Positions 1 through 51,421 of a stretch of 64,000 nucleotides of DNA are shown piece after piece. A program made the translations under genes and the position numbers. Numbering within the stretch: position 1 is the first letter of the stretch; the number at the start of each line of letters is the position of its first letter. The notes beneath the pieces were generated by a model, which was given only the letters and a program-made list of their open reading frames with translations, was not told the origin of the DNA and ran no database searches. The stretch is taken from positions 1,674,001 through 1,738,000 of the forward strand of contig CM035351.1 of NCBI GenBank assembly GCA_020137815.1, in the 5' to 3' direction. This DNA is from Hormiphora californensis. Lineage: Eukaryota > Animalia > Ctenophora.

Positions 1-9481
<9,481 letters not shown>

Positions 9482-9513
9482 CTTGCTGACTATTAGGGGA
9501 TGGAAAGGTAATA

Positions 9514-10178
9514 GGGTAGCGACTGGCTATTTGAAATGGCGGCTAATTTGAAACACCCCCTCTACAGGCCAGCAGGTGCACCAGATTTGGATTTTTCCCT
9601 GCCCGGGTGAATGCCTTCGGCATTCACCCGGATGCCTTTTTACTTTGTAAAAAGGCATAGCAGGGTTAGAATTCGAAAACGACATTTTGGTATACCAACT
9701 AATCGGTAGAGGGACCATTTTGGTCACACTTTCGTTGCGAGGGGCAACCTCGCGGCGCGCGCGATCTGACACTTGCGGAGTAACATGCGCGCGCGCAAAC
9801 AATTGAAATTTTATGAGGGGCGCACGGCTATAAACTGTAACGGGCGGCAAAATTTGTTTTATATCGGCTGCACGTTTTGATCGGGGAAAATGGAGAAATT
9901 GAAAAATCTGTTCTGCGTTTTGTTCAAAAATTCGAAAAACACAAATCCCCATTTTGCGGACAGCTTACTCGTTGGGCGAGTTGAATGGCAAATCGAAGAG
10001 GGCAGGGAAACGTAGCATTATGGATACATAATGCAAATAATTCTTGTTAGACATCAGTGGGCTTGGCATGAGTTTTGACTAGCCCACTGATGTCTAAAAA
10101 TCCAAATCTGGTGCACCTGCTGGCCTGTAGAGGTGGTGTTTCAAATTAGCCGCCATTTCAAATAGCCAGTCGCTACCC
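9514..10178. mobile_element. 665-bp MITE with ~85-bp TIRs between two divergent genes
   Basis: GGGTAGCGACTGGCTATTTGAAATGGCGGC...GGATTTTT is inverted at ~10096-10178; TA on both flanks; internal hairpins at 9602-9631 and 10047-10097. Confidence 0.9.
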
Positions 10179-10346
10179 TATACTTATATCAACAACATGT
10201 ATTAGGGTGTTTGTTTGCACATCTGTCTGTCTGAAATCTGCAAGTTTACATGGAAGATCTGAGTGAGTGTGTGTGAGCTACGCTAGCACACTGTACTAGA
10301 GAGAAGTAGACATTGTAGAGAGTGGTAGACAGTCTCTCTTTCCAAC

Positions 10347-13300
10347 ATGTTTCGTTATCTCCTTCTTCTTCTCGTCTTCCTGCCAGGTAACATTGTCATT
10401 CTTTATTACTTTTAACTGTCCCAATTTGTCACTGTTGTGTTATCGTATTCTCTCTCGCATCTTTGTCTTGTTTGTCTTGTTCCACCACCAACTGTGTCCA
10501 TCGTTATACCGTGTCCGCCAGGTGCGGTGAGGTGTGGGGACCTGATCAGTTACTGGAGGTTGGACAGCGAGGTTCTGACTCTAAAGGACCATGTCAGGGA
10601 GGCTAACTGCAGTGGGTACTACCAAACATTCGTCCTGCGACCCTTCCCCAGTACCTATCTATCCAACGAGAAGAAGTCTTTCATTGAGGTAAGAAGGGAG
10701 TTGTCTCTCAAAATAGTGTCCTGGTAAGTTGTCTAATCGGCTCTCTCCTCGTGCGGCGTGACGATTGAGAGATACTGACGTACGATTCACCTTGCCCTCT
10801 CTCTCCTGCTGACTTTGAATGATGGATCGTTGTTATTTCGTTGCAGACAAACTCAGAGATAGCAATGACTAATGCCAACTTTACGATTATCTTGGACCTA
10901 AAGATAGCCGATACAGATGCGGGATACATTCTACAGTGGGAGAACTACTACTTCAAGTTCGCCATTTATCAATTAGACTCGCAGTTGCTACAGTTTATCT
11001 GGATAGACAAAGGTTAGACTAACGATCAGTATGTAATGTCAAACAGTTTGTTTTATAAGCAGGATTAACTAGTAAGGACCGACTAAGGTGATACCAAACT
11101 AAACCAACCCAATATGAGTGATCCCGACTACTGTTCTTCAGGCGGTGAGCGAGTGAAGGTGACGGAAGAAAAGGTAGAATGGTTGGATCACAGTAGGATC
11201 TCAATAACGTATGATAGGAAGGATATCTCCCTGTACATCAACGAGATACTGACATACACCACCACCATAGAACGTAATGAGCATCACAATATCTTCTAAC
11301 TAATGCATCTTTACAACCTGATGAGCTTCTTTTTTTCTGAGTGTTTTAATTCGAGCCTGGCTACTACCTTCACAACTCAATTTTAACTTTCGTCTTGCCT
11401 CTGAATGCTATCTTCAAATTTAACTAATTCTCTCTCCCTTCCTGCAGTTCCCAGGACTCTGACCAATACGGACTACAAGTTCCAGCTGGGTCAGAATACT
11501 GAGTGTTACATTAAGTCGTGTGCACTGTTTGATAAGGTCCTGAATCTGGCGGAAAGGAACTCTGAGACAACACGTCTAGATAAAGGTAAGGGGGAAGCTA
11601 TTATCTAGAAGGGTTAGTAACACTGTTACTTTGATTAAAACTTAGTTTGATAAGAGTTGAAAAAGTTACCAAGCTGGGCAAATTCATTTAAACACCAGGT
11701 TGTTCGGGGAAGTTGAAGATCAATGGGATGGAGGTACCTGGAAACCAGTACGCAGTGTACCGACAGTGCATGCAGGGAGGCTTCCTAGAGTACCTTTGTA
11801 AATACGATGATGATAAGAGCTGGTGGCAGGGATCTGGACCTAATCCTTGTGATTTTAGTGGTACGTCCGAGAGTTAATTATTAACAGATTAAGTGGCTCA
11901 TGTGACTGTAACAATCAGTTATTAGTAGAGAGAGTTCATGTCCTTGTTAGAATCAGCCGTTGCCATAGCTACAAGAACGATTTAAATCTTATTCAGGGAT
12001 CTATGCGCCGGACCGGGCTGTTAGGGTGGGTAATGATGTTGTATTGATTGGGAACAGAGAGAACTCGACAATTGATCATCAAAGTGTGTCCTGGTATTTC
12101 CCAAACGGTACCAAGATTGTCAGTGATAATGACAAGTATGTGATAACATATGGAAATGAGATCTCAGAGAGGAACCTAGATTGGACCCAGCTGCTGATAA
12201 AAGACACCACGTATCAAGATGAGCTGGTCTATAGGGTGGAATTTGCTTTTAGTTCCGGTGTAAAACTAACGGAATACGTCAAGCTGGATGTCGTAGGTAG
12301 GACTCTCGACTTCCACATCACCTTTCTGTCCAACTCACCCTTAGAATCATTAATTCCTGAACCAGATAGTAAAATGTAACACTTCCCCACAGAGGTAGTG
12401 TTTCCGAATCCTCCTTGTAAAACATAATACTTCCCCCTCCCCACAGAGGCAGTGTTTCCGAACCAGATAGTAACACAAGATACCAACATGTCGGTTAGCT
12501 ACCGAGTTTGGAACAATGCGGACGAGGTCACTAAAGCTAACTGGGTGGTGTCTGATGAGGATCTGTTTGTGTCAACAGAAGATACAACCGTGTTAGGAAC
12601 CTCGGTTTCAACAAAGGATAATAAAAGTAACGGAACGAGAGTCGTTTACACGTTCTTTGATACAACGTCAAGAGTCAAAGAACCCGTCTACAAATCAGGT
12701 ATCAAATTTACTGGGTTACCTTGCTCAACCCTACTTCCGCACGTTTGAACCAAACAAAACACTGGGCTAACTCAAGAAGTACAGCTCAGTAAATCTATGT
12801 ACAATATGTAGAGGGCAGTATGCAGTAGGGGCTGGTGGTCATTAGTGAAACACAAGTCATTCGATACCCGATACGTGTTATGTGTCGAGGGGCAGCTCGA
12901 TGTAGTATCTATGTAGGAGCAGAATCTTGGATGTCAATTACCTAAGTACACAAGTTTCCAGCTCTAGAAACAAGCAATAATTTCAGTTACAATAACGAGA
13001 GTATCTAATGGGACAGAATTCATAGGATGTAGGATCGAGGGTCTAATTGAGGAACCCATTTGTGCTCAGTGGTTCGACACTGCTGGAATCTGTATCGACC
13101 AGGTGAGAAAAATAGTATATTATCTAGTGAAGTACACTAGTGAAGACGCCTTAAAATTCCAGAAGTGAGAATTGAACAACTTCATTTCAGGATGATCAGG
13201 AGACTGTGAGTGGAATCACAACCACCTACCTCAACATTACTGAAAGGGACGACACAGTGTTCTACTGCAACTTTACCATAAACCCCAACTCCATCTCTAC

Positions 13301-16300
13301 AAACAAACTGAAACTAACGGGTAAGCTGTACACACCTTCCAATTCCTCCAAAAGAGGGAATGGGAAAACATATTGCTGCAGCTTTATGATAGTCCTTCCC
13401 CCTTTCTTAGAGGTTGAGCACAGCTTGAGATCGAGGATATTGTACGAATCGAGTGAGAGAGTGATCAGGGCGGATTATGATACAGATCGGAATCTAACGT
13501 TCTACTTGAATGGGTTTACTGAAGATGGCAAGATTGGGGCCCAGATGTACCTCGGTTACAACAACTCAAACCTTTACTCGAATGCTACCATCGACTTTGT
13601 AGGTACGTGACAAATGGTCTCTCTCTCAACAAAGGAGTGTTAAAACTTTACAGTGCAACATATTGGTCCAAATGCTTGTGCAAGCTTTATCAAATAACCT
13701 AAAATGTCAGTATAACAAGATAAGTAAAAGCATATGGCTCAGATTTCAATAGATCTAACCAGTTGTTCCAAACCTTCCTAGAGATAAGAGGAAAATCAAA
13801 AGGTTTGCTGCGCCAGAGTTTTCTGGGCTGTATGCTACATGATATAACCCTAAGCACTACAATTGCATCTAAAGTGCTGTGGAGAAACAGATATGGGCAA
13901 CAAGTTGTAAACAATGCCACTCACAAATACGTCTACGGTAAGAATCATCTCTTTAGAGAGACAGCATGTCTGAGATAACGAGTTACTTCCGGTTAGCAAA
14001 CAATAGGGGAAGCAGTTAAGAATGTAGACTCTGAATCAAGAACACCAATTACAGGTCTCACTGTAACCATGGTAACATTTCAGATTTGACTTCTCCAGAA
14101 TGGTATTCAACCAATCTGACAATTGATAACCTCTACCAACAAGACTACACCTGCAGGTTCTACTTTGATCCCTTGGTCTACATTGAGCTAACCCAAACTG
14201 CTAATGTTGGTAAGTAACTTTTAGACTATATCTGGATAAAATACAGCTAGCTAGAAGATGGCACATTGAACCTCCCATATGAGCTGTTGAAATTTGTGAT
14301 TTCTTTCTCTCCTCTTTCAAAGTGCCATCTTCTAGCTCCGTCCTTGTTGGGAGTGGCACCTGGAAGAGGAGAGAAAGCGTTGTGTGAAGATTCAACTACA
14401 ACGTTTTCCCTCTTCTTTCAGGCTGGTGGGCTCTCCTTCTTGGGACCTTTACCCTGGGAGTACTGACTTACATTGCCGCTGTCTTGATTGTGCTGTACAT
14501 GAAACTACGTATCAGAGGACCGTATTACTCTGATGAGCCAGCTTTGACAGACGTCAATGTCACATCATTTACCAGTGGATCTCATGTTGATAGTTCCCTG
14601 AGGGACACAGTGTCGGTAATGGACAGATTCAGGACACAGGATGAACAATCAATTGACCAGTCAATATCGCAAATTGGAACAAAAGTTGGGTCTCTAATGA
14701 ACAGATCTCTCTCCAACTCCTCCCCGAGGTCTGATACCCAGGCTAGGACACTATCTCAGATGATCGACGAGGATAGGAAACAAGCAGCGTTCCTCCCCCA
14801 GCGAACACTAAAAGACCGAGTTTATGATTTCTTCAGGAAGTCTGTGGGCCGTGCCCCGGGTGATATAAGCCCCGAGGGTGTGGAACGTTCCGACATGTTA
14901 TCGGATGTTCCAGGAGGTATTTCATCAGCTAGCCAGGGTCTCCGACAGAGGAAGATCAACACTGTTCGACTCAGTAGCATCGGGAGGAGTGAAAACTGGA
15001 ATAGCAACACGACCACCAACTGTAACAGACAGAAGTAACATCTCACTGAGCTCACAAGAGCTGTCTTCATTTAGCGCTGTTACAGCAGCACCAAAATCAA
15101 CTGCAACAGCACCTGGTGGAGGGGAATATGATGTGTTAGACCCCTCAGAGGTATACGATGTTGTCCAGCCTACCAGTACCGCAGCTGATCAATCTCATGA
15201 TGGGGACATCTGTACAGGCCAGTCTAGGCGAGTTCTGAAGACAGAGACTACACTGCCATCAGTGAGGGTCCTGTGTATGACACGATCACCCCAGGACTCA
15301 TCAAGTCCACGCTGAAGGACACCACTCAGGGAGGAATGAGCGCCAAGGATCTGAGGAACAACCTGGCTGCGTTGAGGGGAACAGAACCAGCTCCCACAAG
15401 AGGTGGATCAGGAGGGGTAACTTACGACTTCCTGACAGAGAATGATGTCCGGTCCATAATCTCCAAGATATCGGACTATTCAGAGATTCACCCTGAGGAT
15501 TCCGTTAGTCAGGTAGGAGCTTATCAGACCTTCCAAGCGAAGAGATCGAGAACAGAAACACCTGTCACCAAAGCACCTGCCACTGTACAGGAGGAGGAAG
15601 AAGAGCTGAAATCAATTTACAAATCTATCAGTGCTTACAGTCCTAAACCCACAGAAGAAGAAGAGGAAGAGGAAGGGCCAGCGAGGGTATACCAACCGCT
15701 CTCATCCGCCTCTGCTAAATCAAGGGTCAGTTTCCACTTGGGACCTGATCACGATGAGACTAAGTACTCGCTGGGATCCAATATGAGCAGAATGAGAAGG
15801 AAAAATAAACAGCAACAAGCCAGCAAAGCTTCCTCTAAAAAAGCAGCTAGCAAAGCAGCAAGTAAAGCAGCAAGTAAGGCGGCAAGTAAAGCGGCAAGCA
15901 AAGCGGCAAGCAAAGCGGCTAGTATGGTATCTGATAAGGCAGCAAGTATGACACCCAGTGACCCAGGAGATCGGAATTCCAGTTTGATGTATAGTAAACC
16001 AGTTAAGAAAGTGGAATCAGAAGTATCTAGCCAGGAAACACCTTCAACTGTGAGAAGAGCAACTTCACAACACAGCACCCTGGCTCCCTCTTTCCACAGT
16101 TATCAGCCTACTGAGTCAACGCTTAGAGCCGAATCTCAAGTGGTCTCTGAACCTGGATCTTCACTTGGGTCCGTCAAGTCGAGGATTGCTCAATTTGAAC
16201 AAACAGCTTCAGAACAACCTGCAACAGTTGATAGACTGCAGAGGAGCGTGTCAAACGAATCTGTTGTTCATCCTTCAATTATTCCAACGGAAGAATCAAT

Positions 16301-17855
16301 TTACGATCAGATTTATTCTTCTCAACCTCCTGAGGAAGAAGTTCACGAATCTTCGAAATTGTCGACCAAACAATCTTCTCGAAAGAGTAGCAAGAAATCT
16401 AAATCTTCCAAGTCATCCAGGAAGTCATCCAAGAAACAGGATGAAGTGGAGTACAGTCTGGAAGATGATGAGACTTATGACATTCCAGCACAGGAATCGT
16501 CAACGAAAGATACAAGTACCAAACGATCAGTTGAACATAAATCTCGCTCATCACGGTCAAAATATTCAAAACCTTCCACATCAGATATCAATTCTCCTGA
16601 ACAAGAACCAGAATCGTCAACAAGAGAATCAAAATCAGAAGACCGTGTTTACAAACCACAATCAGCGGAGGCCCCAACTAGCAAAACCTACAGCTCCCTT
16701 CACACATCAGAAAAGTCAGAGGGGGCAAAGAGCAAATCTAGTAAAGTACAATCTACTAGCAGCAGCCACAAAGACGTTACTAGAGAAAAGTCTCCCTCCG
16801 CTACAGTTGACCCCACCACTACCCAGATCCCTACTGAACCTATCACTATTGACAAGGATCCCAAAACGACTGAAGAACCAGCTTATAGCTTGGGAAAAGT
16901 ACCGGAGTACAATATAGACGAGCAGGATGAAGAGGTTGTTGAACCAGAGCCACCAGTGAAGAAAGAGGGCAAGTTTGCCAAGTTCCAACGTCTGATGCGA
17001 CCATCGGAGAAACCTAAACCGGCTGTGGAACCAGAGGAATCGTCAGAAGAATCATTGGAAGATGATGAAGAGTCGTCAGAAGATGAATTGTATGATGTCA
17101 TAAAGACCACAGAGCCAGATGAAGAGAGCAGTGAAGGAGAAGAAGAGAAGGCACCAGAAAAACCGGGGAAGAAACCTGGACTTGCAAAACAGCTCTTTGG
17201 AAAGTTCAAAAAGACACCAAAGCAGCCTTCAAAACCAGCGGATGCAATAGAGCCTGATCAAGAGGAGGAACCAGAAACCACAGAACAACAAACAACGGAA
17301 AAACCATCCAAGAAGTTCCGCACTCTCGGATCCTTCGTGGGCAGTGAACCTGTCCTTTACAGCGAGACATCCTCCTCGGAGCTGAGTGAGAGTTCTTACA
17401 ATGACGATGATTACAGTTACTACTTCTCAGACTCAACTGTTGCAGCGTTGATGAAGGAGCAACCCGGAGAGACCAAGTTCGATACTCCCTCCACGGCAGA
17501 GCAGGATGTCGTCTGGCCTGAAGATGAGCCATCTCCCACTTACTCCTCATCCTCTTCCCGATCTAGCGAGTCTACACGAACCTCCAGCGAGTCGGCATCG
17601 TCCTCGAGAACTTCCTCATCACGTACCTCCTCCTCCAGCTACACCGTGACAAGTAGCAGCAGCAGCACGGAATCCTCCACAGATGTCCCTGATGATAGGA
17701 CATCAGTGGTGTCCGGACAGACCCTGACATCAATCACTAGCGTGGAATATGGAATAGATAGTAGAGCCACCGGACTGACAATTAGTACTGAGACTGAGAG
17801 TGAATCTGATAGTGAGAGTGATACTTACTATAGTCCAAGAAGAGCCAAGCGGTAG
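10347..17855 (+). CDS. Type I membrane receptor, module/isoform A: signal peptide-LamG/pentraxin-like-CCP(sushi)-like-~5 Ig-like-TM-~1100-aa disordered Tyr-motif tail
   Basis: Exons 10347-10386 (MFRYLLLLLVFLP), 10522-10688 (LISYWRLD), 10847-11012, 11142-11273, 11448-11585, 11699-11860 (4-Cys CCP-like), 11997-12296, 12447-12698, 12987-13102, 13191-13320, 13411-13602, 13782-13937, 14084-14209, and terminal exon 14422-17855 (TM WWALLLGTFTLGVLTYIAAVLIVLY). Splice phases are consistent. Apparent frameshifts lie between ~14930 and ~15230. Confidence 0.8.
15818..15945 (+). repeat. Coding 12-bp repeat encoding (SKAA)n in tail A
   Basis: SKASSKKAASKAASKAASKAASKAASKAASKAASM with synonymous variation among units. 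Confidence 0.85.
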
Positions 17856-17978
17856 AATTATTTGAATTAGTTTTTTAACCTTTTGACCCTGGTGTTCACT
17901 GTTCAGCAATTAATTAGAAACAAACATCAGTGTATTATTTTCGGTGTACCAAAAATATCTATCTAACCTATTACCTAG

Positions 17979-20900
17979 CCGACAACCCAAGTCTGATTGG
18001 GTTCTGGAAGTTTAATGAGGACTCAGTGCTTATAAACTGGGCTGGAAATATTGATATTAACAAAGTTGCCGCAACCTCAAAACGACGCCGACGACGTTCA
18101 ACTGACTCCACACCTGAATACACGGTAAGTGAAATTGACTCATTCAACTGTCAATTTGCAAAATGTTTCAGGATAAAGGCGAACTTACTAATTTCAGACC
18201 ACGCAAGACATGCCACTGAGTGATACACAGTTCACCCTTGTGTTCGGGTTTACAGCTCCTTTGGCTGGCACAGGGGAGTTAGTAACCTGGGACAGTTACT
18301 ACTTTTCTCTAAACATCTCACTGGACAACAAGGGATCATTAACCTGGGGTTATAAAGATGCGGGAGTGGAAGGAAGTGGGAGTGTGCCCATCCCGGACAA
18401 CCTGAACCTTCTTGCTATTTCTTATGACAGAGAAACATTCAGGGGCTACAATCTGGAAACGTTAGCTAGCGTATGGACGCACACATTCACAGGTAAAAGT
18501 AATTGTTATCAGTACTTTCTAAGTCTAACAAACAGTAATTGTGAAATTCAAATAAGAGACATACCTACAAGTTGAAAAAGTATCATTTTTCAGGTTCATC
18601 CCTTGCAAACTACAACGATAATAACCAGCTTCTGAAGATTGGCCTCTTGACCGGTACTAGAGTCAGTGAGGTTTATATTTTCGATACGGTACAATCGACA
18701 ACTCGGGACACCATCACCAGACTAAATGAAGGTAAGAACGAGTTATTCATTGGTAGAAGTAAAGTTTCATCTATGTTGTCGTTATGATAATAATTCGTAT
18801 TTAGGTTGTTCGTTATTATCATATGACGGCGTTGTGATCTCTACCAGCAAGGAGACAGTTCTGGTAAACTGCAACAATGGGGAGGTAGTGAATGCCACGT
18901 GCAAGTATAATGACACTGCATCTTACTGGGATGGACAGTTACCCAACAGTTGTGATATCAGTGGTAAGTAAGGAAATGGGACGGTAAATCAGGGTAAATG
19001 GATAGTATACTTGACAATTTCCAAGCAAAGAAAATTGGGGAGAAAGAGATAGCTATGCCCACAAAGAAATCTAAGTTTAACACCAAAGATTTCAGTGGTA
19101 TATGGATCAGTAAGTGCGGCTCTGACTGGAAGCTCAACAACCCTCACATGCACTAGACGTAACGCTACTGTTACCGTGACTGGAACTAACTGGAAACTAC
19201 CCAACGGTATAAGACTCTCTCTCCGTCCTTTGCACTAGTTTTGTTATAATGTGGTTACAAATGGTAAATCAAAATGATGAACAAATTTTTTCCAGGAACT
19301 GAAATAAACTTTGAAACCGTTGATGTAATTGATGGGAACAAAGAGCAAAAGGCAACGCTTATTTTGACTGGTCTAACAAGCAGTGACTCTGGAACATACG
19401 AGTGTAGTTTTGAGTTCGAAGAAGGAAATATCGCCGGAGAAGCTAAATTAGATGCGCTAGGTAGGTATTTAGAAAGGAAAACAATCTCAAGCATCATAAG
19501 ATTTCACCCACTTCTAATAAGTATCTTGCGTAATTTCCATGAATCAAATCTATTTCTGTACTTCAGATCTGATCGGACCGGACGTCATTGCCGTGAGGGG
19601 AGAGAGCGCAACCGTATCTTGTACCCTCTCACCGGGTCAATTTACTAAAGCCACCACTGCATACTGGCTAGATGCTACGGGCAATGCTCTACAGAAAACC
19701 AGCACAAGTACAAACATCAAGTGGGTGGTATACGAGGCAACGAAGGATGATTCCTTCACCTGTGATTACACGGTTGGAGGTGTCTCTCTGAACCACACTG
19801 TACAGCTGAATGTAGCTGGTGTAACGGTAACAAATGGTGTGTGTTCAGAGGGGGAGGGTACAGCTGTCAGTATCACCTGGAGTGAGTTACAGTACCCCAT
19901 TATCAATGTGACATGGTACAGCGAGGAGGGGATAGTTGCAGATGATACAGGACTCTATAGCTCAACTCTAACAGCTACTAATGTCAGTTTATTGGTTACC
20001 AAGGCAACACCTGGAATGCAGGGGCAGCACATGGCAGAGATCAGTTTTGGAAATGGCCAGCAAATAAACATTACATCGATTGTTGACGTCATTACGACTC
20101 CTGGGTCTGTACAACTTGTGGGAGACTCCTGGACAGAAACTAGAGTCCTGGGGCTCGTCAAGGATCTCTCTGTGTCTGTGTGGCAGGTCTATGTGACGGG
20201 ACCGTTAGGAGACAGTGACGCAGTAAGGGTGAAAGTGAGATTGAGCAAAGATTTCACAGCTGATACCGTAACAATTTTAACTCTTGACGGAGAAACTGAA
20301 CAGTTAGGTAAGTACGATTATGCTTAATATTTTTTCCAACCAATCTTTCTATTTTTTTCATCTTCACTGTGGGGCGATTGAGTGAATGAAAGTTCCAAAT
20401 ATTTAAACCAATTATGAACAGGCATTACATGTGACACAAACCTGTCGTTGGTACAATGTAAAGTGGGCACAGAGTTACAATCAGAATACATAAATGAAAT
20501 GAAATGGTTACTAGAGGACAATTCTGTGGTAGCAGAAGGAGCCAGAATTGGCTTCACTGCAACAGTCCCTAAATCTTCAAATCCAGTCTTCTTCGAGTTA
20601 AATATTGGAACTACTGAATCTTGGAGCATAGAAGGTAACATTTAGTTTTGTATCTAGACAGTGGCACTTCCAAGCTGTGATGACTAGTTGCCCTGCTCGA
20701 ACCTGTGCCCAACCCTTTAGTGATATAGGTCGAATTGCCCCAGTTTACACTTAACCCCATACTTCAAGTGACCACAATTTTAGGTGCACTGATATCCCCT
20801 GAAGTAGAGATGACAGCGGATAAAGCGTTTACCCTGCGTCACACTGGTAGTGTAACAGATCTTGTGCTAAAGGGTTACATAACATCTGATACGGTGGTAA

Positions 20901-23097
20901 CAATGCTGTATAATATCGAGGGATACCAATCAGAGGCACAACACATCCTCAGAAAATTAGGTTCGGAAAATAATCGAGGGTTATGTACTGTGGGATTTAC
21001 TAATCCAATAGTAGGTATAGCTATTATTATCAGTAAGCATCTATAAAAACACCAACCTCTAACATCGACAACCCCCAATATATTTTAGATGTTACATCAA
21101 ATGATGTCATCACATCCAGTACGGAGGCAGTCACACTAAGTTGCACGGTGATACCAATGAGTTTACAACTCAACACTTCCCTCTGGGTTTACAACGACCA
21201 AACAAACCTACAAAACTCGGTAGGCAACACATTTGGCAACGCCTTATTTAGATGCACATTTAGTCGTTGATTTTTAAACTCTCGTCCCAAAATTCTACAT
21301 TGCAGGACCTATTGGTTACTGAAAACGAGATTAAAAGTGAGATTGAGATCAGCAAAGTTGATTCCAGTACCGAGGGTCAATACGAGTGTGTCATGAACTT
21401 TGGATCGTCAGGAACGATGCGAAACCCTGTGAATCTAGACTTCATAGGTATTAATACTCATTACGTTTGGGAGAGGTTTAATTGAGCTAGGGTGTTTATA
21501 CTTCAGTCACAATTTTGACCTGAGCCCAAGCCGGGTTCGCATGAAACCACTTGAACAACTTACAAAACGAATTACTGCTGGATTGGTTTATAAATGTCCC
21601 GGGTTGAGACCTGTTATAGTTAGAAGGAGCTAGGCATACAAACACAAACGATCGTAACTGGATTTGTTAGCGCCATCATAAGATCGGATGTTGTTGTGCA
21701 GGGAGGAGGTATAATAAGATTCACCCCGACACAGTTAACAAAATCAATTCCCTCCTTCTCTCTCGATTTAGAGATCAATTCGGTGAGCTCCCAAGATAGT
21801 CAGGACGGGACGACGGTAAACTGCACCCTAATTGGATCGGAATCCGAGCCAGTTAATATTGGGTGGAATGTTGATGGACAGTTTATGACTGGTTCTAGCG
21901 ATATTCACATAGGTACAGGTAATTTTCAGCGAGCTGTGTTTCTGGTATCACATGAACATTTGCTGTTTTTAAACCCTTTCTCCCGTAATTGTTGCCTAGC
22001 TAGACTGTGTTTCGCGCGCCCCGCCCGTAAAGGAGTTTACAAGTTTACAAGTTTACAAAATTAGATTCGGGATACAATGCATAAATACAAATATACCACG
22101 TTCTCAGCATGTTGCTTCTACGTACAATGATGTGAGGGTTAGAACATAACAACGTAATTGATGAAAAGTTCCAAGTACGAACGAACAGATGATATTCTAT
22201 TTCAGAAATTTCGAAGAGCAAGGAAGCTTGGACGAGTGCACGGTTGACTGGCGACGGTTACAAACCGTCTCTTGAGTGTGTCTTTATGTTTGAAAATGGC
22301 TACACTGCTACCGCTCAACCTGCATACCAGTTGAAAGGTAAGATACACAGTCAGGTATATTGTCTGAAGTTGAAACTTAACTCGAATGTTTCTTTTCAGA
22401 TTCAGAAAGTGTGTCAGCAGTATCAATCCTCATCTTTCTGATTCTTGCCCTGGCCATTCTTTCACTAGCAGCTGGGTTTATCTACCTGAAAACCAAGAAG
22501 CCAGAATCCCTGAACCGGATCACATCTAGTGTCAAGGAGTCAACTCTAAAGAGGATCAGAAGACGGAGGGAGGATACAGATATTGAGGATGAGAGATATG
22601 ACATGGCTCCGGATGATAGGATTAAACTACCAGTGATCGCAGAAACCAGCCCAACTCAAAGTTCCATTTATGATACCTGGGATGTGTTTAGCGAGACATA
22701 CCAGAACCAATCTGTTGCACACAGCCCGGGACAACCTATTGCTCCTCAACAGATGTCAGAACCATTAGCTACCTACCAAAACCAGGTCCCAGCAGTTGCT
22801 GCGGCTGTCTACCAAAATCAAGAGACCTCCTCCCCAGAATTACCGAACTATGCCAATATGCCAGCTTCATCCCCTGATTCACCAAGCTACACTAACCAAG
22901 AGGAGGGAGTAGTGTATCAGAATGAGCTATTCTCAGATCATGGGGTGTTGTCAGGCAATGGTCGAACACCCGAAGAGGAGGAGATTCTATCAGCACCGAT
23001 TGCAGAATACGCCAGTTCAGAATCACAAAGTGTGGTAGCCGAGAGTGTGCTGTATGACAACCCCGTTGTCAGTTACTCAAACATCCTTGACAATTAA
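17979..23097 (+). CDS. Module/isoform B: LamG/pentraxin-like-CCP-like-multiple Ig-like-TM-~200-aa YxN-rich tail; no ATG or signal exon of its own
   Basis: Exons 17979-18124 (LIGFWKFNE), 18198-18492, 18594-18731, 18805-18963, 19096-19206, 19296-19460 (DSGTYEC), 19567-20307, 20422-20634, 20784-21014, 21089-21219, 21306-21447 (EGQYEC), 21772-~21915, 22206-22337, 22400-23097 (TM ILIFLILALAILSLAAGFIYL). Homologous to module A (FTIIL..LQWENYYF vs FTLVF..VTWDSYYF; CKYDD..W.G..PN.CD vs CKYND..WDG..PNSCD). Confidence 0.8.
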
Positions 23098-24565: not shown

Positions 24566-27500
24566 TCACGCATCCTTCACGATAAACCACCATTGTGATG
24601 TCTGAAAGGATAGAAAATGTTAAAATAGAGAGACAGGAACAATGATCTAACTAAACACACTACACATAATAAAGTTAGTTAGACGGATGGTAGTTAGTTT
24701 GCTTTACTACAGTTCCCCACACACTCAATTTAGTCCCCACACACACACAATATTTACCTGAGATAGTCCCCTGGAATGAATGGAGCTCCAGGGAAGGGTC
24801 GGTTTGGGTGAGGGTTCTGTCGTTGTAGGGTCATGGTATAGGGGTGTTGTTGTTGGTGTTGTTGGGGGAGTTGCTGCTGACCGGGTAGACCCATTCCTCC
24901 AAAGTTGCGAGGTAACGTCTGAGGAAGGGATGAGGGTTAGAAAAACGAAGTATTAGAGGTATATTAGAGGGATATTAGAAAGAAATTAGAGGGATAATAT
25001 TTTATCGAATAATAAGGAGATGACAGGAATCCAATGGGGAGGACAGACTAGAGAAACCAGGTTCTAACACTCATTACCACTAAATACCCCACAACATACC
25101 TGTGCATTATTGCCATTGAACACATCACTATACATGTTCTCGGTGGGGTCCCGTTGAGGGATGGTCATCTGTAACAACCTCTCATCCTCAGTTGTCATGT
25201 GGCTCCGATAAGGACTGTTACTTGCCACCTTGTCCAGCCCCTCGGGCATGATAAGGGTTGAGGTAGTGTTAGTGGAGCCTGGTCCCATTGTTTCTAGTGT
25301 CGACTTTTTCTGGGGAGGAGGAAGGGTGTTATTATTCAAGGGAAGATCCAAGATAATTTAGGGTTTATACTAGCTAGGATACTAGCTAGGAGGAAAAAAC
25401 TAATGGATGAGACAGTATTTAAACTGTTGATGAGAGATGTGGTAAATCACCACCATCACACTGTCCCAACACTTACCATGTAACTGATGGGTGTATCATG
25501 TATTATGTTATGGGAGTTAACCCGGTCTATATTCCTCTTCTTCAAACTTGAGTTACTGCCACCAGTGTTATCCCTCCGACTAGAGCTCCGTCGAGTATAG
25601 ATCATCAGGAACACTATCAGACAGATAGAGATAACAAAGAGGGAACCAAATACCAGGGCCAGGATTTTAAATAACTTGCTCTCGGATGATCCGCTATACC
25701 GGGCTTCGTTAGCACCTTTATCGCTGACTGGAGAGATGGATGTGTTTATGAAGGAGCACTACAAAACAACACATTTGTAATTGTAACCTACTAGCTAGAA
25801 TTGTAACCTACCGAGATCGACTAAGGATTTGATATGGCGAGCAAGGCAAAGACTTACTTGTAACGTTTTGACTGATTGGCTCTGATTGTCTGGGTTTCCA
25901 TGTTCCGGTAAAGGTACAGTTCCTAGTTTCCCTCTTGATCTCCTTTATTGAAGGGTAGACATCAAATGTCTTGATGGTAGTTAGTCCCTTGGAGCATTTC
26001 TCTGCAGATTCATCACATGTCGGCTCACATTCTCCCTTGTTCACCCATTTATAGGTTGAGATACGGGTGAATACATTGGATAACTTGCCCTCTATTGGAT
26101 CGTTTACACACTGGGCTGCATCACTGAAATTGAAAGGGAGTTAGATGGAGGGAGTTAGGGGGAGGGGAGTTAGAGGGAGGGTGAACTAACTAGAAATTCA
26201 AATAGAATGTTACGTAACCATCACCCACTTTACCAAATCAAATCTAGAACTCTACTCCCCCTATGACCTCTTGTAACTCTGTTTGTTTCTTGCCACTTAA
26301 TCTAAGTACCCACTAAGTACCACTACTGCAGGCAGTGATATAATCCATCACTACGTAACCCCAGATAATTCACTCACCAATCGTTCACATTACTACAGGA
26401 ATGTGAGGTCATACACCAGCAACAGTGGGGGTCTCGCTCCACAATACACTGGTTCAGTCCTGTAAAGGCTTTACACTGGGAGACAGGGAACCGAGTCATG
26501 CTCTCCGGGGAGGCGGCTATCAGCACACGATTCTGAAACAACAGACACCAGTTAGACTGGGTTTAACTAGAGCTGTGTAGTAATTTCCAAAAATTTAACT
26601 ACTTTAGTAATTTCAACCCCCCCCCCTGACTGACGCCACCAGATTGGACAAGATAAGAGCCGGGTCACACCACCACCACCACCCTGACCTCGCGCGCCCC
26701 CTGAGTCTGTTCCGCGCGCCAGTGCCAACGAGACTCTCTGAAGATTACACCAGCGCGTTACATCAGGTCACAGCACCCTTCCGCAAGTTATTAAAACAGG
26801 GGGCTTGGCTGAGACCTGATACTTTAGTCAAGGCACTGACGTCACAGGTCATAGATTACACCCTGATTACACGATATGACATCAGTCCTCAGTGTGACTT
26901 AGCCTCTCTCGAGAGGGGACATGATAAGGAGCCTGGAGCCTATCGATATACCCTGACTGTGTGCCGTAACATGTGATATCGGTACTCGTGAGTGTGTACT
27001 GAGTACTGAGTGTACTGTACTCTCTCTCTTTCTTACCTCACTGTTGGTAAACTTGAGCATGGTAACGGGTGAGTGAGTATCAGCCACCACGAACTCAGAA
27101 ATCAGGACGACTTTGTTGGTTTTGGGGGTCAGGGATAACTTTTGAACACTTCCACTGTCAGTCCCAAGATAGATCACGGTCATCTGTCCTATATTATCCG
27201 TCAGGATAGATGTGAACCTGAGAGAGAGAGAGAGAGAGAGAGGGAGGGATTATTAGCAGCTATCTATAGTGCATGGAGCTATAAGAGAGAGAGTCTATGT
27301 TTGTCCCCCCCCACCACACGAGCTAATATTATAACTAATGGCTCCCTCTCTCCACTCATTATAGGAGCACTTAGTTTCCTTGTGTTGTGAGTCTCTAGAG
27401 AGGGATAGATAGAGGGATGGATGGAGGGGATAGAGAGGAACCATGAGATTATGTGATTTCGAATAAAGAGGGATTTACGGATTTTGTCTACTGAAAAGTA

Positions 27501-31641: not shown

Positions 31642-34600
31642 TTGGAGCAAGTCTCAAGTTGGTAATAATTGAACAATAAAACACCGGAAATATAGGCTCA
31701 CCCGGTCACCCCACGCAGGCCCAAACCTACTTCCTATTGTGGGTACAACACTTCGAGAAAAGTGTAATTTTTCCCAGATTTAAAAAGAAGAAGGTATAGA
31801 ATAAAGAAGACCTGGTGAAAATAAGGTCTGTATGTATTTCTAATATATTAGAATATATTAGAATATATAACCGACCGTGTGTCTTGAAATAATGAACTGT
31901 CATCAAATGAAAGGCATGCTAGATATATCCCTCACATCTTACTTACGTTCATCATAATATATCATCCCTATATATCTTCATTTCCTATCCTGTTCATTAT
32001 TTCATTCTCTCTCCTTTCTTTCCTCTAAATCTCTCTCTCTCCCTCTCTTTCTTTAGTTCTAATTTCTCCCTGATAGCTCATCTCATCAATGATCGTTATG
32101 GAACATCATAGAATGTTCTGGAACTGTGGTCAGTGAGCTTCTTTGTTTCAAGTATTTGGTTTTCTTTTCACATGGTTTTGTGGTAGGAACCTCCTGAGGC
32201 CGCTATCGCTTAAATCCACACTACTGTTGGAAAATTGCCAGGGCCGGAGGTAAAGTTCTCCCTCTATCTCTCACTCCGTCTCACTTTCTCTCTCTCTCCT
32301 TACCCCTCACGTGGGTTGGTAACACTGACAAATGAGCTGACGAGAAAGCTGAGTTGTATACGGATGTGAGACATATTATTATGTGTATGCAAAACAAACA
32401 TACCCTAGCTGGGGCTGGGAGCGGGCTCCAATGGGTGCCCAGCTGAGCTGCAATACACTGCCAATAGGACGTGCACCTCCTGCAATACACACTTGGAGTT
32501 GTGATAGGTAATCCGAGTATACGTGACACTTGCGTGTGATTGGTGAGCTTTACAGACGAACTAACAGTCACTAGATCATGATGATATTTTATCATGAAAA
32601 ACAAAAACATAAATATTATATCATTCAACTTACGTCGAAGGGGTATCGAGGTGACTCTTCCACCTTGGCGCCATCACTATCATATACGTAGTAGTTACCA
32701 GCAAAACTAGCGTCTATATCTTCCAATGAGTAGCTGCAGACTGCATAGCTGAAAATAGAACTCTTGATAAAAAACAAATCATCAAGAGATATTGATATTG
32801 TACTTTTTAGTATTTTAGAGGCAGGAAGAATAATATCACTCAACTATCAATGTCGATCTGAATATGAGGACAGAGTGTCTACTGTCTGTGTTGTCTATCA
32901 CTCGTGTCTTGTCTGTCATGTCTGTCATGTCTGTCATGTCTGTCATGTCTGTCATGTCTGTCTTGTCTGTCTATACTCTATATATTCTTGTCTTGTCTGT
33001 CATCCTTACCCGACAATAACGACATCAAGGTACTGGGTAAATGTAGCATAGAGTCTCTGGCTTTCTGCGTTGAATGTTGCAGAATAGACGACCTCAAAAT
33101 CAAGGTTGACCTTAGCGGAAACCTGCATCTCGCAGGTAACTTCAGTCTTAATGAACGATAGGAACATCGTATTGACTATATTCGACTGAGGGGGAGATCT
33201 GGTTAGAGGGGGTTGGAGGGATCGGGTTCTACTTGGGTTCATGGAACATGTCGGTACTTCAAACAGTGTGGATATTTGTTTGTTTGTGTGTTCGAATGCT
33301 GCGGACAACTTGTAGAGCTGTGTGAAACAGGCTCACACTTAGCTTTAATCCTAAACCATTCTCTCTCTTTGCTTTTATCAGGGTGTGAACTGCATGTCGT
33401 GTTTGCTAGTCGCGAGCGCGCTTGCGAGACAAGCAAACACGTCAAGGTTCATTAACAAGCATGCTGCTCAGTCATTTTAGATTTAATACACAATGTAAGG
33501 ATACCATGTAATAGGTGAGACTCTTGCCGTCACCCTCGTTCAAGTCCCGTGAAAAACGGAGCAGTACACGCAAACTGATGCCCATTTTCCTCGCGTGACC
33601 CCGATTACACATTTCCCCCCCCCCTTTTTCCCCCCCAAATTTTCCCCCCCCCTTGGTTTACACAATTTTTAAAAAATGTACCCCTTTTCCACCCCAAAGG
33701 ATCCGACAATTGACAACAAAAAAAAGATCTTTGCGTAGGAGTAAAAATGATGCACCTTTTTTTTTCACCCAAAAAAATTTGAATAGGGGGCTGTTGGGGA
33801 GGAGGCTGCTAGGAGGGGGCCAATAAAATTTTTAAAGTAAAATTGGACTTCTAAAGCACGCTCCCCATTTTGAAAAATTTAAAAAGGTTTTCGAAGAAAG
33901 AGAAAACCGGGAAGAGGGGGGAGGGAAAAGAGAAGAGAGAGGGGAAGAGGGGGAAAAAAGAGGAGAAAAAAGGGAAAAAAAGGGAAAGAAATTTGGGGGG
34001 GAAAAATGGGAAGTGAAAAAGGGGCCCTTTTTTTTCCATGGCTCGTTTTATTCCATTTTTAGTTTTTTAAAATTTGGTAGATAAAATTAAAAGCCTAAAA
34101 TAAGATTTTGTCAAAAAATGGGTGTTTTTAAAAGGGGTTGAAATTCCCCTAAAAAATTACCCCCCTTTCCCTTTTTTCCAGCCCCTTTTTTAAAACTTTA
34201 AATTTAATTGAAAATTTTTTTTAAAAAGTTTGCAAATGGAACACCCCTAAAAATGTTTAAACCCCTGGGGGGTGGGTTTTCCCTTCCCCCAAAAATTGAA
34301 AAACCACCTAGAGTTTTCCCCCGCGGGGTTCCTTTTTATTCATATTTCCCCCCCAAGTGGAAAATTCCCTTTTCAAACTCTTTTCCGGGGCTAAAATTAG
34401 GGTTCCAGGGCCGGGTAATGAGAAAATTTAAAGGGGGAAAAGGGGAATTTAAATTTGGGCCCCCCCAACCCCCCCGGGTTTAGCGGGCCCGGCCCTTAAG
34501 AGTTTGGGCCGAGGGATTTTAGGGGGCCAAGTATGGGGTGAGAAGGGGTTAAAATTCATTTGGGGAACCCAGGAGAAAAAATTGGTTTGTGAATAGATAT

Positions 34601-37600
34601 TGAAGTGGGGAAGAAGAATTTAGGAAGGGAGGAGAAAAGAGAGAGGGGTTTACCTTTTTTGGTCCTTTTTTGGGGGGGGTTTCCCTTTTTTTTTTTGGGG
34701 GCCCCCCCCCCTTTTTTTTTTTTTTTCCCCCCCTGGGGGGGGGGAAAAGGGGGAAAAAAGGGGGGGGGTTTAAATCCTGGATACCATCCCCCCCCCAAAA
34801 AATCTGCCCACTCACCAAACCCCTTTTTTTCCCAAAAGTGCACCCCTACACCCCGGGGCTGCGGCTGCGCCCGGCAGGTAATTCTCAGGGTTTTAATTTT
34901 TTTTTTAAAAAGAACCTCTCTTCCCCCTCCTTACAAATTTCTCTGGCTCTCTCCCCCCTCCCTCTTCCCCCCCCAATTAAACAAAACTTTTATTTCCCCT
35001 GACAAAAATCAATAATCCCTTCCCCGTGCCCCCCGGGGTTCCCTGATTAAATCTGACAAAAAATTTTGTCCATTTTTAAAAAAGATAAAAAATTTGCTTA
35101 AAATTTTTTGGGGGGGGGGGGTTTTTTTCCCCCCCCCCGGGGGGGAAAACTAGTTTTAACCCCAAAATAAATAATTAAACTACGCCCCACCTTTTCACCT
35201 ATTTGTTGAAGTACATGCTCTTGCCCTACTACACTTGTCTCTATGAGGGGAAAAACGCCCCCCTCTTTGAACTTTTTTCGGGCATTATTTTCCCATTGAA
35301 AAACGTGTTTTTTAAAAGGGGGGGGTCAATAAAAAGCCACCAGTATAGTTTTTTTTCCAAAAGGTTTATTTATTATCAAAAGATTTTTTATCACTTTTTT
35401 TTTCCCTTCCCCATTTCCCCTAATCTAAAACTGCCCACGCTGCATCCCATTGTGGGGGCAGGGGAAAAGAAGGGTTTGGTTTTTATAAGAAAAGGTGGAA
35501 GAGAGATCGGGGAGAGAGAGGGGGAGAAAAGAGAAAAGGGGAGAGAGAGAGAGAGAGAGAGAAAAGGAGAGAGAGAGGAGAGAGAGGGGAAGAGAAAATT
35601 TGGGAGCAAGTCTCAAGTTGGTAAAAAATTAAAACAAAAAAAAACCCCGGAAATATAGGCTCACCCTCCCCCACCCCCAAGGGCCCAAACCTATTTCCCT
35701 ATTGGGGGTAAAACCCCCTTGGGAAAAAGGGGAAATTTTTTTCCCAGTTTTAAAAAAAGGAAGTTATAGAATAAAGAAACCGGTGAAAATGGTTTTTTAT
35801 GTATTTCAAATATATTAGAAATTTAGAATATATAACCGACCGTGTGCTTAAAATAATGAACTTCATCAAATAAAAGGCATGCTAGATATTCCCTCACATC
35901 TTACTTACTTTTAAATCAAATAATCATCCCTATAATCTTCTTTTTCCTATCCTTTTCATTTTTTTCATTCCTCCCCCTTTCTTTCCTCAAAAATCTCTCC
36001 TCTTCCCCCTTTCTTTTTCTTTGTTCAAATTTTCCCTCCCTGAAAAGCTCATCTCATCAATGATCTTTATGGAATCAAAATGTTCTGGAACTTTGGTCAT
36101 TGAGCTTCTTTTTTTCCCAAGTTTTTGGGTTTTTTTTTCCATGGTTTTGGGGTGGGAAACCCTCCGGGCCGCTATCGTTTAAAAACCCAAACACTACTTT
36201 TGGGAAAAATTTGCCGGGGCCCGGGAGGAAAATTTCTCCCTCATCTCTCACCCCCCGTCTCACTTTTCTCTCTCCTCTCCCCTTTAACCCCCCCCCACTT
36301 TGGGTTGGTAAAAACTCAAATAAAGCTGACGAAAAAGCTGATTTTGTTAGGAGGGAACATATTATTATTTTGTATGCAAAAAAAAACATACCCTAGTTTT
36401 GGGGCGGGAGCGGGCTCCAATGGGTGCCCAGCTGGCTGCAATCCACTGGGAAAATTTTTTGGGGGGAATTTGGGGGGCCCCTTCCCTTGAAATACACATT
36501 TGGGAGTTGTGAAAAAGGGTAAAAAAAACCCGGGGTATCGTGACCTTGCGTGTGATTGGTGAGTTTTTTACAGACAACTAACGTCACAGACCCAATGTTT
36601 ATATTTTACCCATAAAAAACAAAAACAAAAAATATTAAAATTCATTCAACTTAGGGTCGAAGGGGAAATCGAGGTGACTTTTTCCCACCTTGGGGGGCCA
36701 CACATCATTACGTAGTAGTTCCAGAAAAACACGTCTATATTTTCCCCAATTTAGTAGCGGGCAGATGCTTTCCTGAAAATAAACTTGAAAAAAAACAAAT
36801 CATAAAGAGATTTTTGAAAATTGTACTTTTTAGTTTTTTAAAGAGGCAGGAAAAAATAATACCCACTCAACTATCAATTCGATCTGAAATTAGGCCCGAG
36901 TGCCCTACTGCCCTGTGTTTCAAATCACTCGTGTCTTGTCTGTCATGTCTTCTGCCCTGTCATGTCTGCCCAATGTCTGTCAGGGTCGTCTTGTCTGTTA
37001 TCTCATATTTTTTGGGTCTTTTTCTGTCATCCTTCCCCGAAAAATAACCTCAAGGAAACGGGTAAATGTAGCTAGGTCCCCCTTCCTGGTTTTCCCTGCG
37101 TTGAATTTTTGGCAGAATAGCCCCGACCTAAAAATCAAGGTTGACCTTAGCGGAAACCTCCCATCTGCAGGAAACTTCAGTTTTAAATGAACAAGGGAAC
37201 CCTCGTTTTGGGCAAATTTTCCGACTAAAAAGGGGGAGATCGGGTTAGGGGGGGTTGGCGGGATGGGTTTCCTTTTGGGGTTTCATGGAACATTTCGGTA
37301 CTTAAAACCCTTGGGGAAATATTTGTTTTTTTGTGTGTTCGAATGCGGGCGGACAATTTGTAGATTTGTGTGAAACAGGCTCACACTTAGTTTTAAATTT
37401 TCCTAAACCATTCTCTCTCTTTGCTTTTACCCAGGGTGTAAAAACGCATGTTTTGTTTTTCTAATTTGCGAGCGCGCTTTCGAGACAAACAAAAACGTCA
37501 AGGGTTCCCCCAACAAGGGAAAGCTGCTCATTTATTTTTGATTTTTAAAACCAAAGTTTAAAGGGTACCATGTAATAGGTGAGCCCCTTTGCCTCACCCC

Positions 37601-46600: not shown

Positions 46601-47123
46601 CTCAAAATCAAGATTGACCTTAGCGGAAACCTGCATCTCGCACGTAACTTCAGTCTTAATGAACGATAGAAACATCGTGTTGACTATATTCGACTGAGGG
46701 GGAGATCGTGTTAGAGGGGGTTGGAGTGATCTGGTTAGGGGGGGGGGGGGGGTTGGAGGTATCGGGGATATAGCACTTCTACTTGGGTTCATGGAACATG
46801 TCGGTACTTCAAACAGTGTGGATATTTGTTTGTTTGTGTGTTCGAATGCTGCGTATAACTTGTAGAACTGTGTGAAACAGGCTCACACTTAGCTTTAATC
46901 CTAAACCATTCTCTCTCTCTCTCTCACTCTTTGCTTTTATAGCCGCCAAGCATTTTACATAATTCTCTCTCTTTCTCCCTCTCAGCCTTTTTACGGAATA
47001 GCAGCTTTAGTAGTGGGGTATTGTTAGGTCGTGAGAGATGGGGAGGCACAATACAAAGGGTGGCAGCTTCGCATGCAGCTGACACTACTCTGTGAAAACG
47101 TCACTTTCCCACTTTAGACAAAC

Positions 47124-47183
<60 letters not shown>

Positions 47184-50566: not shown

Positions 50567-50643
<77 letters not shown>

Positions 50644-51363: not shown

Positions 51364-51421
<58 letters not shown>

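What the first reader, a model, noticed from the sequence alone, without database searches (positions are those of the whole stretch)
10347..23097. One receptor locus, two ectodomain modules, two mutually exclusive TM+tail exons: candidate tail-switching immune/recognition receptor
Seen: module B begins at a phase-1 acceptor (17979) only ~120 bp after the module A stop. The gap contains no ATG, signal exon or AATAAA, and the first in-frame Met lies mid-domain (18210). The last ectodomain exon of A (ends 14209) and the signal exon (ends 10386) both end in phase 1, so either can splice in frame to 17979 (e.g. ...QTANV-A-DNPSLIGFW). Inference: a single gene makes a short receptor with tail A or, by skipping the 3.4-kb TM/tail exon, a double-length receptor with tail B; alternatively it makes module B alone from a shared leader. 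A LamG-CCP-Ig(n)-TM-pTyr-tail architecture without an enzyme domain resembles in logic paired immune receptors and the Ig-type Alr allorecognition proteins of Hydractinia. I do not recognise a described family with this architecture.
Basis: partly seen in the sequence, partly recalled or inferred. Interest (0 to 1): 0.9.

Follow-up and report, generated by a model that had tools for sequence, protein, structure and literature searches.

The report
Comb jelly receptor with two tails
In a comb jelly, two duplicated cell-surface receptor units sit 123 bases apart and no start codon or leader exon was found for the second in this window, so one gene likely makes either a short receptor with one tyrosine-rich tail or a double-length receptor with a different tail, a splice choice not yet tested in RNA.

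Summary
The locus is from a Pleurobrachia ctenophore. Two paralogous modules (LamG-like, four-cysteine CCP-like, several Ig-like, TM, tyrosine tail; 25% identical over 366 aa) lie in tandem. The gap after A's stop is 123 bp without ATG, one DNA contig spans it, and a relative keeps the stop (TAG/TAA) and the AG at 17977-78. Joining 14209 to 17979 gives an open 1823-aa protein. No leader exon for B was found in the window. Corrections: the '3.4-kb TM/tail exon' has six in-frame stops as assembled (two of three needed single-base losses are seen in other DNA runs); phase match, missing ATG and missing AATAAA are weak evidence; the 17979 acceptor is weak. New: a conserved ~38-bp block in the gap ending in an AG, a furin-like RRRRR site just after the junction, and distinct tails (B: 8 YxN of 12 Tyr; A: 0 of 36). 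No RNA covered the locus, so no junction is shown. Best reading (0.55): alternative terminal exon, as in IgM/IgD and Hydractinia Alr1/Alr6. Immune function is unsupported. No described family with this architecture was found. New variant of a known kind.

The parts
10347..10386 (+). Leader exon of A (ATG, 13 codons, hydrophobic core, phase-1 donor)
   Evidence: the only strong leader-type exon on + in 1-17978 (donor score 9.8, hydropathy 3.7)
10522..11585 (+). Module A LamG-like domain, four exons (10522-10688, 10847-11012, 11142-11273, 11448-11585); first exon also ends the signal peptide
   Evidence: model; homologous to B's LamG-like region by BLASTP; Pfam no hit
11699..11860 (+). Module A four-cysteine CCP-like exon
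   Evidence: 37% identical to B's counterpart, 4 Cys and Trp invariant
11997..14209 (+). Module A Ig-like exons (11997-12296, 12447-12698, 12987-13102, 13191-13320, 13411-13602, 13782-13937, 14084-14209); last donor phase 1
   Evidence: V-set E 0.015 for the first; number of domains (about 5) is my estimate
14422..17855 (+). TM + cytoplasmic tail A, terminal exon; interrupted in the window by six in-frame stops at 15036-15227; inferred 1143 codons; 36 Tyr, 8 YD, no YxN
   Evidence: 875-codon open frame 15228-17855; stop TAG/TAA and 7 of 7 listed changes in 17825-17855 synonymous
17872..17909 (+). Conserved block in the gap, ending in TTCAG; candidate second acceptor, trans-splice site, 3'-end element or promoter element
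   Evidence: X7 contig 17865-17909 has 1 difference in 45 bases (at 17871) against 13 variant sites in the next 64 bases; P about 0.002 uncorrected
17979..18124 (+). First exon of module B (phase 1 in, 0 out), no signal peptide; holds RRRRR-S furin-like site at 18083-18100
18198..18731 (+). Module B LamG-like domain, remaining exons (18198-18492, 18594-18731)
   Evidence: ESM Atlas first hit 0.95, Laminin_G_2/G_3 cluster, 120 of 256 shared features
18805..18963 (+). Module B four-cysteine CCP-like exon
   Evidence: score 0.88, Sushi-bearing clusters among top hits: lead only
19096..22337 (+). Module B Ig-like exons (nine exons; about 8 domains by my estimate)
   Evidence: Pfam V-set E 1.3e-4, Ig_2 E 1.2e-3, all below curated cut-offs; phmmer hits are Ig proteins
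22400..23097 (+). TM + cytoplasmic tail B, terminal exon; about 204-aa tail, 8 YxN among 12 Tyr

Best explanation
A tandem duplicate receptor module (B) has no start codon or leader exon that could be found in this window, so it is likely expressed only from module A's promoter, by a predicted splice from A's last ectodomain exon (14209) that would skip A's membrane-and-tail exon. Shown: two paralogous modules, an open 1823-aa A+B frame, a conserved A stop and a conserved AG at B's edge. Inferred: the default product uses the near, strong acceptor at 14422 and ends in tail A (about 1835 aa, 692-aa ectodomain, long YD-motif tail); when A's 3'-end processing is bypassed, the weak far acceptor at 17979 is used and gives a double ectodomain with tail B (YxN motifs, the Grb2-type SH2 consensus, recalled). 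The same front end would thus feed two different adaptor outputs. Origin (inferred): fixation of a read-through fusion of tandem paralogs with loss of B's promoter and first exon. The biological role is most likely cell-surface adhesion or recognition with signalling through cytoplasmic tyrosine kinases; immune versus neural or epithelial use is undetermined.
For: A+B open frame and GT-AG introns. A and B paralogous, E 5e-28, 25% over 366 aa, alignment starting at matching exon borders, so B's first exon corresponds to A's second. Strict leader scan of 1-17978 found four candidates, of which only A's leader looks like a signal exon; a looser scan of 10388-17930 found three, all overlapping A's own coding exons with weak donors. 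B exon 1 has no hydrophobic core. Gap real in DNA (X2 single contig). In the relative (run X7) the gap is diverged up to 17976, with no listed change in 17977-18024; no listed allele creates an ATG. Coding constraint: 17 of 21 exonic substitutions among the 40 rows shown are synonymous (A 12 of 14, tail A 1 of 1, B 4 of 6); tail A end 7 of 8. Divergent minus-strand coding stretch upstream of A and a minus-strand semaphorin downstream bound the unit. Precedents for the logic: penultimate-to-second-exon read-through (PMC5209911), teleost IGHD starting with an IGHM exon (PMC7287348), Alr1/Alr6 alternative TM and tails (PMC9546547).
Against: No junction is shown in RNA. The 17979 acceptor is among the weakest at the locus (-0.6; one X7 allele 1.0, the other -2.7) and the intron would be 3769 bp against 62-324 bp for the other 26. 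In B exon 1, 10 of 13 listed changes are non-synonymous, close to neutral, although no stop or frameshift is listed and one X7 allele has an in-frame 6-base insertion with the donor kept (read by eye). The conserved block at 17872-17909 is not explained by this model. Eleven of A's 13 donors are phase 1, so which donor is used is not fixed by frame. The substitution tables are truncated to best-supported rows (40 of 1447; 40 of 47). Botryllus fuhc was first described as one alternatively spliced gene and proved to be two genes 227 bp apart (PMC3691228), though there the second gene has its own signal sequence.
Confidence: 0.55

Rival explanations
1. A and B are two messages: B is resolved by spliced-leader trans-splicing or starts from a promoter at the conserved block in the gap, and is translated from Met 18210, a non-AUG codon or a leader my scans missed.
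For: Trans-spliced leaders are on at least 56% of Hormiphora Iso-Seq reads (PMC8527503, passages). The conserved block ends in TTCAG with TTAAC about 27 bases upstream, like an acceptor. B exon 1 tolerates many amino-acid changes. fuhc precedent (PMC3691228).
Against: The leader printed in PMC8527503 has no ATG; no ATG in the gap in any listed allele; Met 18210 follows an out-of-frame ATG, cuts the LamG-like domain and starts no signal peptide, yet B is a type I membrane protein with 12 N-glycosylation sequons and 15 ectodomain Cys.
Confidence: 0.15
2. B belongs to a separate gene whose leader exon lies far upstream, outside the window or unrecognised, with gene A nested in its first intron.
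For: Hormiphora has 2357 nested intronic genes in 1654 hosts, many parallel to the host (PMC8527503, passages). Sequence upstream of the window could not be read (no genome held).
Against: The intron would exceed 18 kb, hold the whole paralog A plus minus-strand coding sequence, and skip 13 stronger acceptors; a tandem duplicate's leader is expected between the copies.
Confidence: 0.12
3. A shared promoter and leader exon splice to either module (10386->10522 or 10386->17979), giving receptor A or receptor B alone, never the double form.
For: Leader+B is an open 1144-aa frame; B has a complete paralogous architecture.
Against: A's signal peptide is completed by exon 2; leader+B gives only 13-14 residues before an acidic stretch, short for a cleavable signal (recalled rule; no signal-peptide predictor was available); the intron would be 7592 bp.
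Confidence: 0.1
4. B is an orphaned duplicate that is no longer expressed.
For: No start, weak first acceptor, near-neutral listed changes in exon 1.
Against: All 14 exons are open with GT-AG introns; the arrangement is shared with a relative about 8-10% diverged; 4 of 6 listed changes in other B exons are synonymous.
Confidence: 0.05
5. A phase-1 GT at 17812 joins tail A in frame to B through a 167-bp intron, giving one giant two-pass protein.
For: The join is in frame and the intron length is typical.
Against: Donor score 0.3 against 1.3-12.0 leave-one-out; the 43 bases after it evolve as coding sequence up to a conserved stop; it would put B's ectodomain in the cytosol.
Confidence: 0.03

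Closest known systems
Hydractinia Alr1 and Alr6 (PMC9546547, passages read)
   Same: Non-bilaterian single-pass Ig receptors with tyrosine-motif tails; alternative splicing to alternative TM and tail exons changes ectodomain length; some isoforms may be secreted.
   Different: Alr proteins have 1-3 Ig domains plus an Fn3-like spacer, one exon per domain, and often ITAM/ITIM. Here LamG-like and CCP-like domains lead, domains are split over exons, there is no ITAM, and the alternative tail comes with a whole second ectodomain. No sequence link found.
Vertebrate IgM/IgD transcription unit; teleost chimeric IGHD (PMC7287348, passages read; general mechanism recalled)
   Same: One promoter and 5' exons serve two downstream blocks, each with its own TM exons; the downstream block has no start of its own.
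   Different: Shown by RNA there, inferred here; unrelated proteins; here the whole first ectodomain would be kept and the tails are long, unrelated signalling tails.
Read-through (transcription-induced) chimeras (PMC5209911, passages read)
   Same: Predicted join is penultimate exon of the upstream gene to the second-exon equivalent of the downstream gene.
   Different: In typical chimeras both parents are expressed independently; here no first exon was found for the downstream copy, so the fusion would be obligatory.
Botryllus fuhc sec / fuhc tm (PMC3691228, abstract and passages read)
   Same: Two units separated by a very short, featureless spacer (227 bp there, 123 bp here) in an animal with trans-splicing; first read as one alternatively spliced receptor gene.
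   Different: It proved to be two genes, and the second has its own first exon and signal sequence; B has none detectable.

Membership tests
Hydractinia Alr family | 1-3 Ig-like domains plus Fn3-like spacer, TM, tail; each domain on one exon | tested here: not met
   LamG-like and four-Cys domains precede about 5 and 8 Ig-like domains; domains split across exons; definition from PMC9546547
Hydractinia Alr family | Sequence homology to Alr ectodomains | tested here: inconclusive
   No Alr among hits; searches used single exons and found only weak generic Ig proteins
Hydractinia Alr family / allodeterminants | Extreme amino-acid polymorphism in the ectodomain | tested here: inconclusive
   17 of 21 listed exonic changes synonymous, but 10 of 13 non-synonymous in B exon 1; tables truncated, three samples only
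Paired immune receptors (ITAM/ITIM type) | ITAM or charged TM residue in one member, ITIMs in the other (definition recalled; ITAM consensus in PMC9546547) | tested here: not met
   No ITAM in either tail, one ITIM-like VTYDFL in A, none in B; neither TM holds a charged residue
Paired immune receptors (ITAM/ITIM type) | Near-identical ectodomains on separate genes | tested here: not met
   A and B are 25% identical; under the best model the shared ectodomain comes from splicing instead
IgM/IgD-type alternative terminal block | Downstream block has its own TM exon but no promoter or leader | tested here: met
   No leader for B found in window 1-17978; sequence upstream of the window not available
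IgM/IgD-type alternative terminal block | Both spliced products exist | not testable with these tools
   No run on record as RNA holds the stretch; the one guessed RNA run did not cover it
Read-through chimera | Penultimate exon of gene 1 compatible with second exon of gene 2 | tested here: met
   14209 is A's penultimate exon; B's first exon matches A's exon 2 in position and phases (direct alignment only 12% identity)
LamG / concanavalin A-like domain | Profile or fold match | tested here: inconclusive
   ESM Atlas 0.95 to a Laminin_G cluster, recognition 3144, but 120 shared features; Pfam and PDB sequence searches gave none on single exons
CCP / Sushi domain | Four Cys and Trp in CCP spacing; profile or fold match | tested here: inconclusive
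   Pattern present in both copies; Atlas 0.88 with low recognition; no Pfam hit; model pLDDT 59 gave no meaningful fold match
Immunoglobulin superfamily | Ig profile match | tested here: met
   Five exons give Ig-clan Pfam hits, best E 1.3e-4, all under curated cut-offs; 5 of 6 phmmer hits at E<=0.001 carry Ig Pfam matches

The most novel reading that the evidence does not exclude
One ctenophore gene yields three products from one ectodomain: a membrane receptor with the long YD tail; a double-length precursor that furin cuts at RRRRR-S just inside module B's LamG-like domain, leaving ectodomain A as a tethered, releasable cap on a Grb2-type receptor B; and a secreted ectodomain A made by splicing 14209 to the conserved AG at 17906, which reads Ala-Ile-Asn-stop (the stop has no listed change in the relative). 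That would be a splice-controlled receptor, pro-receptor and decoy switch built from a fixed read-through of tandem paralogs.
Probability: 0.15. Interest if true: 0.8.

Novelty: new variant of a known kind. Interest (0 to 1): 0.55.

Why it matters
Ctenophore cell-surface recognition receptors are poorly known. This locus gives an undescribed (in the searches run) LamG-like/CCP-like/Ig receptor type with two very different tyrosine tails and a single RT-PCR-testable prediction. If the skip junction exists, tail switching through alternative terminal blocks would be present in ctenophores as well as cnidarians and vertebrates, by convergence, and the locus would show how read-through of tandem duplicates can become obligatory. 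If it does not, the locus shows how a ctenophore expresses a membrane protein with no visible start, which bears on trans-splicing and nested genes.

Tried and rejected
RNA evidence: no RNA holder listed; the guessed RNA run X10 gave only two partial matches; neither says anything on expression. No whole genome held, so paralogs could not be counted; no third copy in the window (tblastn). Run X9 laid nothing on the gap. Homolog searches: B's largest exon among 432-2000 aa proteins, 0 of 4230 candidates; A's first Ig exon among 175-2000 aa proteins, 0 of 75; phmmer over 1.84 billion representatives, 6 weak hits, one a repeat artefact, four generic Ig proteins, one 124-aa unnamed fragment 33-35% identical. 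As a control, the window's P450 found a Pleurobrachia bachei protein at 96% identity, so that proteome is in the collection, but no model of this locus surfaced. Only single exons could be used as queries, which limits sensitivity. PDB sequence searches gave nothing significant. Structure models were poor (pLDDT 34; 59) and fold searches were uninformative. The core of the conserved block has no copy above chance in the window. Missing AATAAA rejected as evidence. Phase match rejected as evidence. Earlier scan findings: none. Literature searches for this architecture or locus found no description: (listings only); most subscription journals are not held, the ctenophore trans-splicing paper PMC2844618 was not held, and no supplements were opened, so a listing in a supplementary gene table is not excluded.
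Full report
Organism. The window's P450 (54505-56103, minus strand) is 96% identical over 60% of its length to a protein named Pleurobrachia bachei in EukProt, so the window comes from a Pleurobrachia ctenophore. No whole genome was held. Much of the window beyond about 33 kb looks low-quality and homopolymer-rich, so small assembly errors are plausible.

Gene model. From three-frame translation and splice signals I modelled 13 exons for module A (10347-14209), a TM+tail exon (14422-17855) and 14 exons for module B (17979-23097). All 26 introns within A and B are GT-AG and 62-324 bp. A's ectodomain with signal is 692 aa. Joining 14209 to 17979 gives an open 1823-aa protein; joining the leader to 17979 gives 1144 aa. 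A and B are paralogs (E 5e-28, 25% identity over 366 aa) with matching early exon phases; B's first exon sits where A's second exon does, though they align directly at only 12%. No third copy is in the window.

Domains. B's exon 18198-18492 matches Laminin_G clusters in the ESM Atlas at 0.95; Pfam on 28 single-exon queries found no LamG or Sushi, and Ig-clan hits under the curated cut-offs on five exons. The next exon in each module keeps four Cys and a Trp (37% identity); CCP remains a lead. The largest B exon finds 6 proteins at E<=0.001 among 1.84 billion, five with Ig matches. Each module has one TM segment. Tails differ sharply: A has 36 Tyr, 8 YD, no YxN, one ITIM-like motif; B has 12 Tyr, 8 YxN; neither has an ITAM. 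That YxN is the Grb2 SH2 consensus and YD motifs bind Nck/Crk/Abl-type SH2 domains is recalled knowledge.

Correction to the observation. The 3.4-kb exon has six in-frame stops at 15036-15227 in the window. Contigs of other DNA runs lack one base at 14952 (X5, X7; not listed for X2) and one at 15227 (X2, X5, X7). These two alone stop at codon 271; one more loss in 15138-15236 opens 1143 codons. The third is inferred, not seen (12 of 328 indel rows shown). An 875-codon open frame follows, and its end is coding: 8 of 8 listed changes in 17810-17855 are at third positions, 7 synonymous, including TAG to TAA. I read the stops as assembly errors, but segregating short-tail alleles are not excluded because the losses are in only part of the summed depth in X2 and X5.

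The gap. It is 123 bp, has no ATG, and lies within one X2 contig. In run X7, coded as another organism and about 8-10% diverged, 17913-17976 has 13 variant sites and an out-of-frame indel, while none is listed in 17977-18024; two to three differences per contig are unplaced. No listed allele makes an ATG. This supports an acceptor at 17979, although it is weak: -0.6 against 14.0 for the TM-A acceptor. Phase match (22 of 26 introns are phase 1), absence of ATG (16% by chance) and absence of AATAAA (also absent after B's stop) carry little weight. What carries weight is that B is an intact type I membrane protein without a signal peptide, and that scans found no leader for it: four candidates in 1-17978 under strict settings, only A's convincing, and three weak ones overlapping A's exons under loose settings in 10388-17930.

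First, 17872-17909 is invariant in X7 (1 difference in a 45-base contig, at 17871; P about 0.002 uncorrected) and ends in TTCAG. It could be a second acceptor (14209->17907 reads A-I-N-stop, a secreted ectodomain), a trans-splice site, a 3'-end element or a promoter element; I cannot tell. Second, B's first exon holds RRRRR-S, a furin-type site absent from A, with no listed change while 10 of 13 listed changes in that exon alter amino acids. In an A+B precursor it would lie about 40 residues after the junction.

Selection. Among the 40 substitution rows shown (of 1447), 21 are exonic and 17 synonymous (A 12 of 14, tail A 1 of 1, B 4 of 6). These are the best-supported rows, not a random sample. 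They argue that both modules are functional and give no sign of allodeterminant-level diversification outside B's first exon.

RNA. No junction could be tested: no listed holder is on record as RNA and the one guessed RNA run did not cover the locus.

Mechanism. Most likely (0.55) one transcription unit with an alternative terminal exon: the near, strong acceptor gives receptor A with the long tail; bypassing it gives A+B with tail B. Rivals: separate B message by trans-splicing or own promoter (0.15), distant leader with A nested (0.12), shared leader only (0.10), silent B (0.05), in-frame fusion through 17812 (0.03). Trans-spliced leaders and nested genes are common in the related Hormiphora (PMC8527503, passages), and Botryllus fuhc shows how such a locus can be misread (PMC3691228, abstract and passages).

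Comparison. It works like the IgM/IgD unit (PMC7287348, passages), like Alr1/Alr6 alternative tails (PMC9546547, passages) and like a fixed read-through chimera (PMC5209911, passages). It is not an Alr or a paired ITAM/ITIM receptor by the features tested. Passages of the Mnemiopsis immune-repertoire paper (PMC11797021, six search terms) did not mention this architecture, and searches (listings only) showed no description; coverage is limited to open-access papers and supplements were not read.

Verdict. A real, conserved and unusual ctenophore receptor locus; the tail-switch model is plausible and cheaply testable but unshown, and its logic has precedents. Novelty: new variant of a known kind. 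Interest 0.55.

Noticed in passing
window 24900-27250 (minus strand), probably extending to about 28200: Semaphorin-like gene tail-to-tail with module B: Sema domain exon (Pfam E 4e-9), PSI exon (E 0.0035), then further exons and a TM with tail.
   Followed up: partly
window 54505-56103 (minus strand): Cytochrome P450 in one long open frame (Pfam E 3e-42); used to place the organism.
   Followed up: yes
window 9509-10183: Repeat element with long terminal inverted repeats (64 of 67 bases match; very high depth), a likely MITE, about 160 bases upstream of A's start codon.
   Followed up: partly
window 21990-22152: High-copy repeat inside a module B intron (depth and many loose ends).
   Followed up: no
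window 11719-11777: A 198-base, depth-4 contig of the guessed RNA run X10 matches A's CCP-like exon at 52 of 59 bases; its loose ends read like a spliced LamG-to-CCP join of a further paralog (read by eye). Weak hint of a larger family.
   Followed up: no
window 11586-11860: Two deeply diverged alleles of the intron and CCP-like exon of A within run X2 (many substitutions and indels), exon changes mostly synonymous.
   Followed up: partly
window 12380-12470: Short tandem duplication of an acceptor and the first bases of the next exon in A's intron; a possible alternative acceptor.
   Followed up: no
window 15820-15925: KAAS tetrapeptide repeat in tail A.
   Followed up: no
window 17876-17890 (minus strand): The conserved block reads on the minus strand like two nuclear-receptor half sites spaced by two bases (consensus recalled); may be chance.
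   Followed up: no
window about 4700-9526 (minus strand): Apparent multi-exon gene divergent from A; three stretches tested gave no Pfam hit.
   Followed up: partly
window about 33500-52000: Long stretches with extreme strand skew and homopolymer runs, suggestive of low-quality sequence or degraded simple repeats.
   Followed up: no
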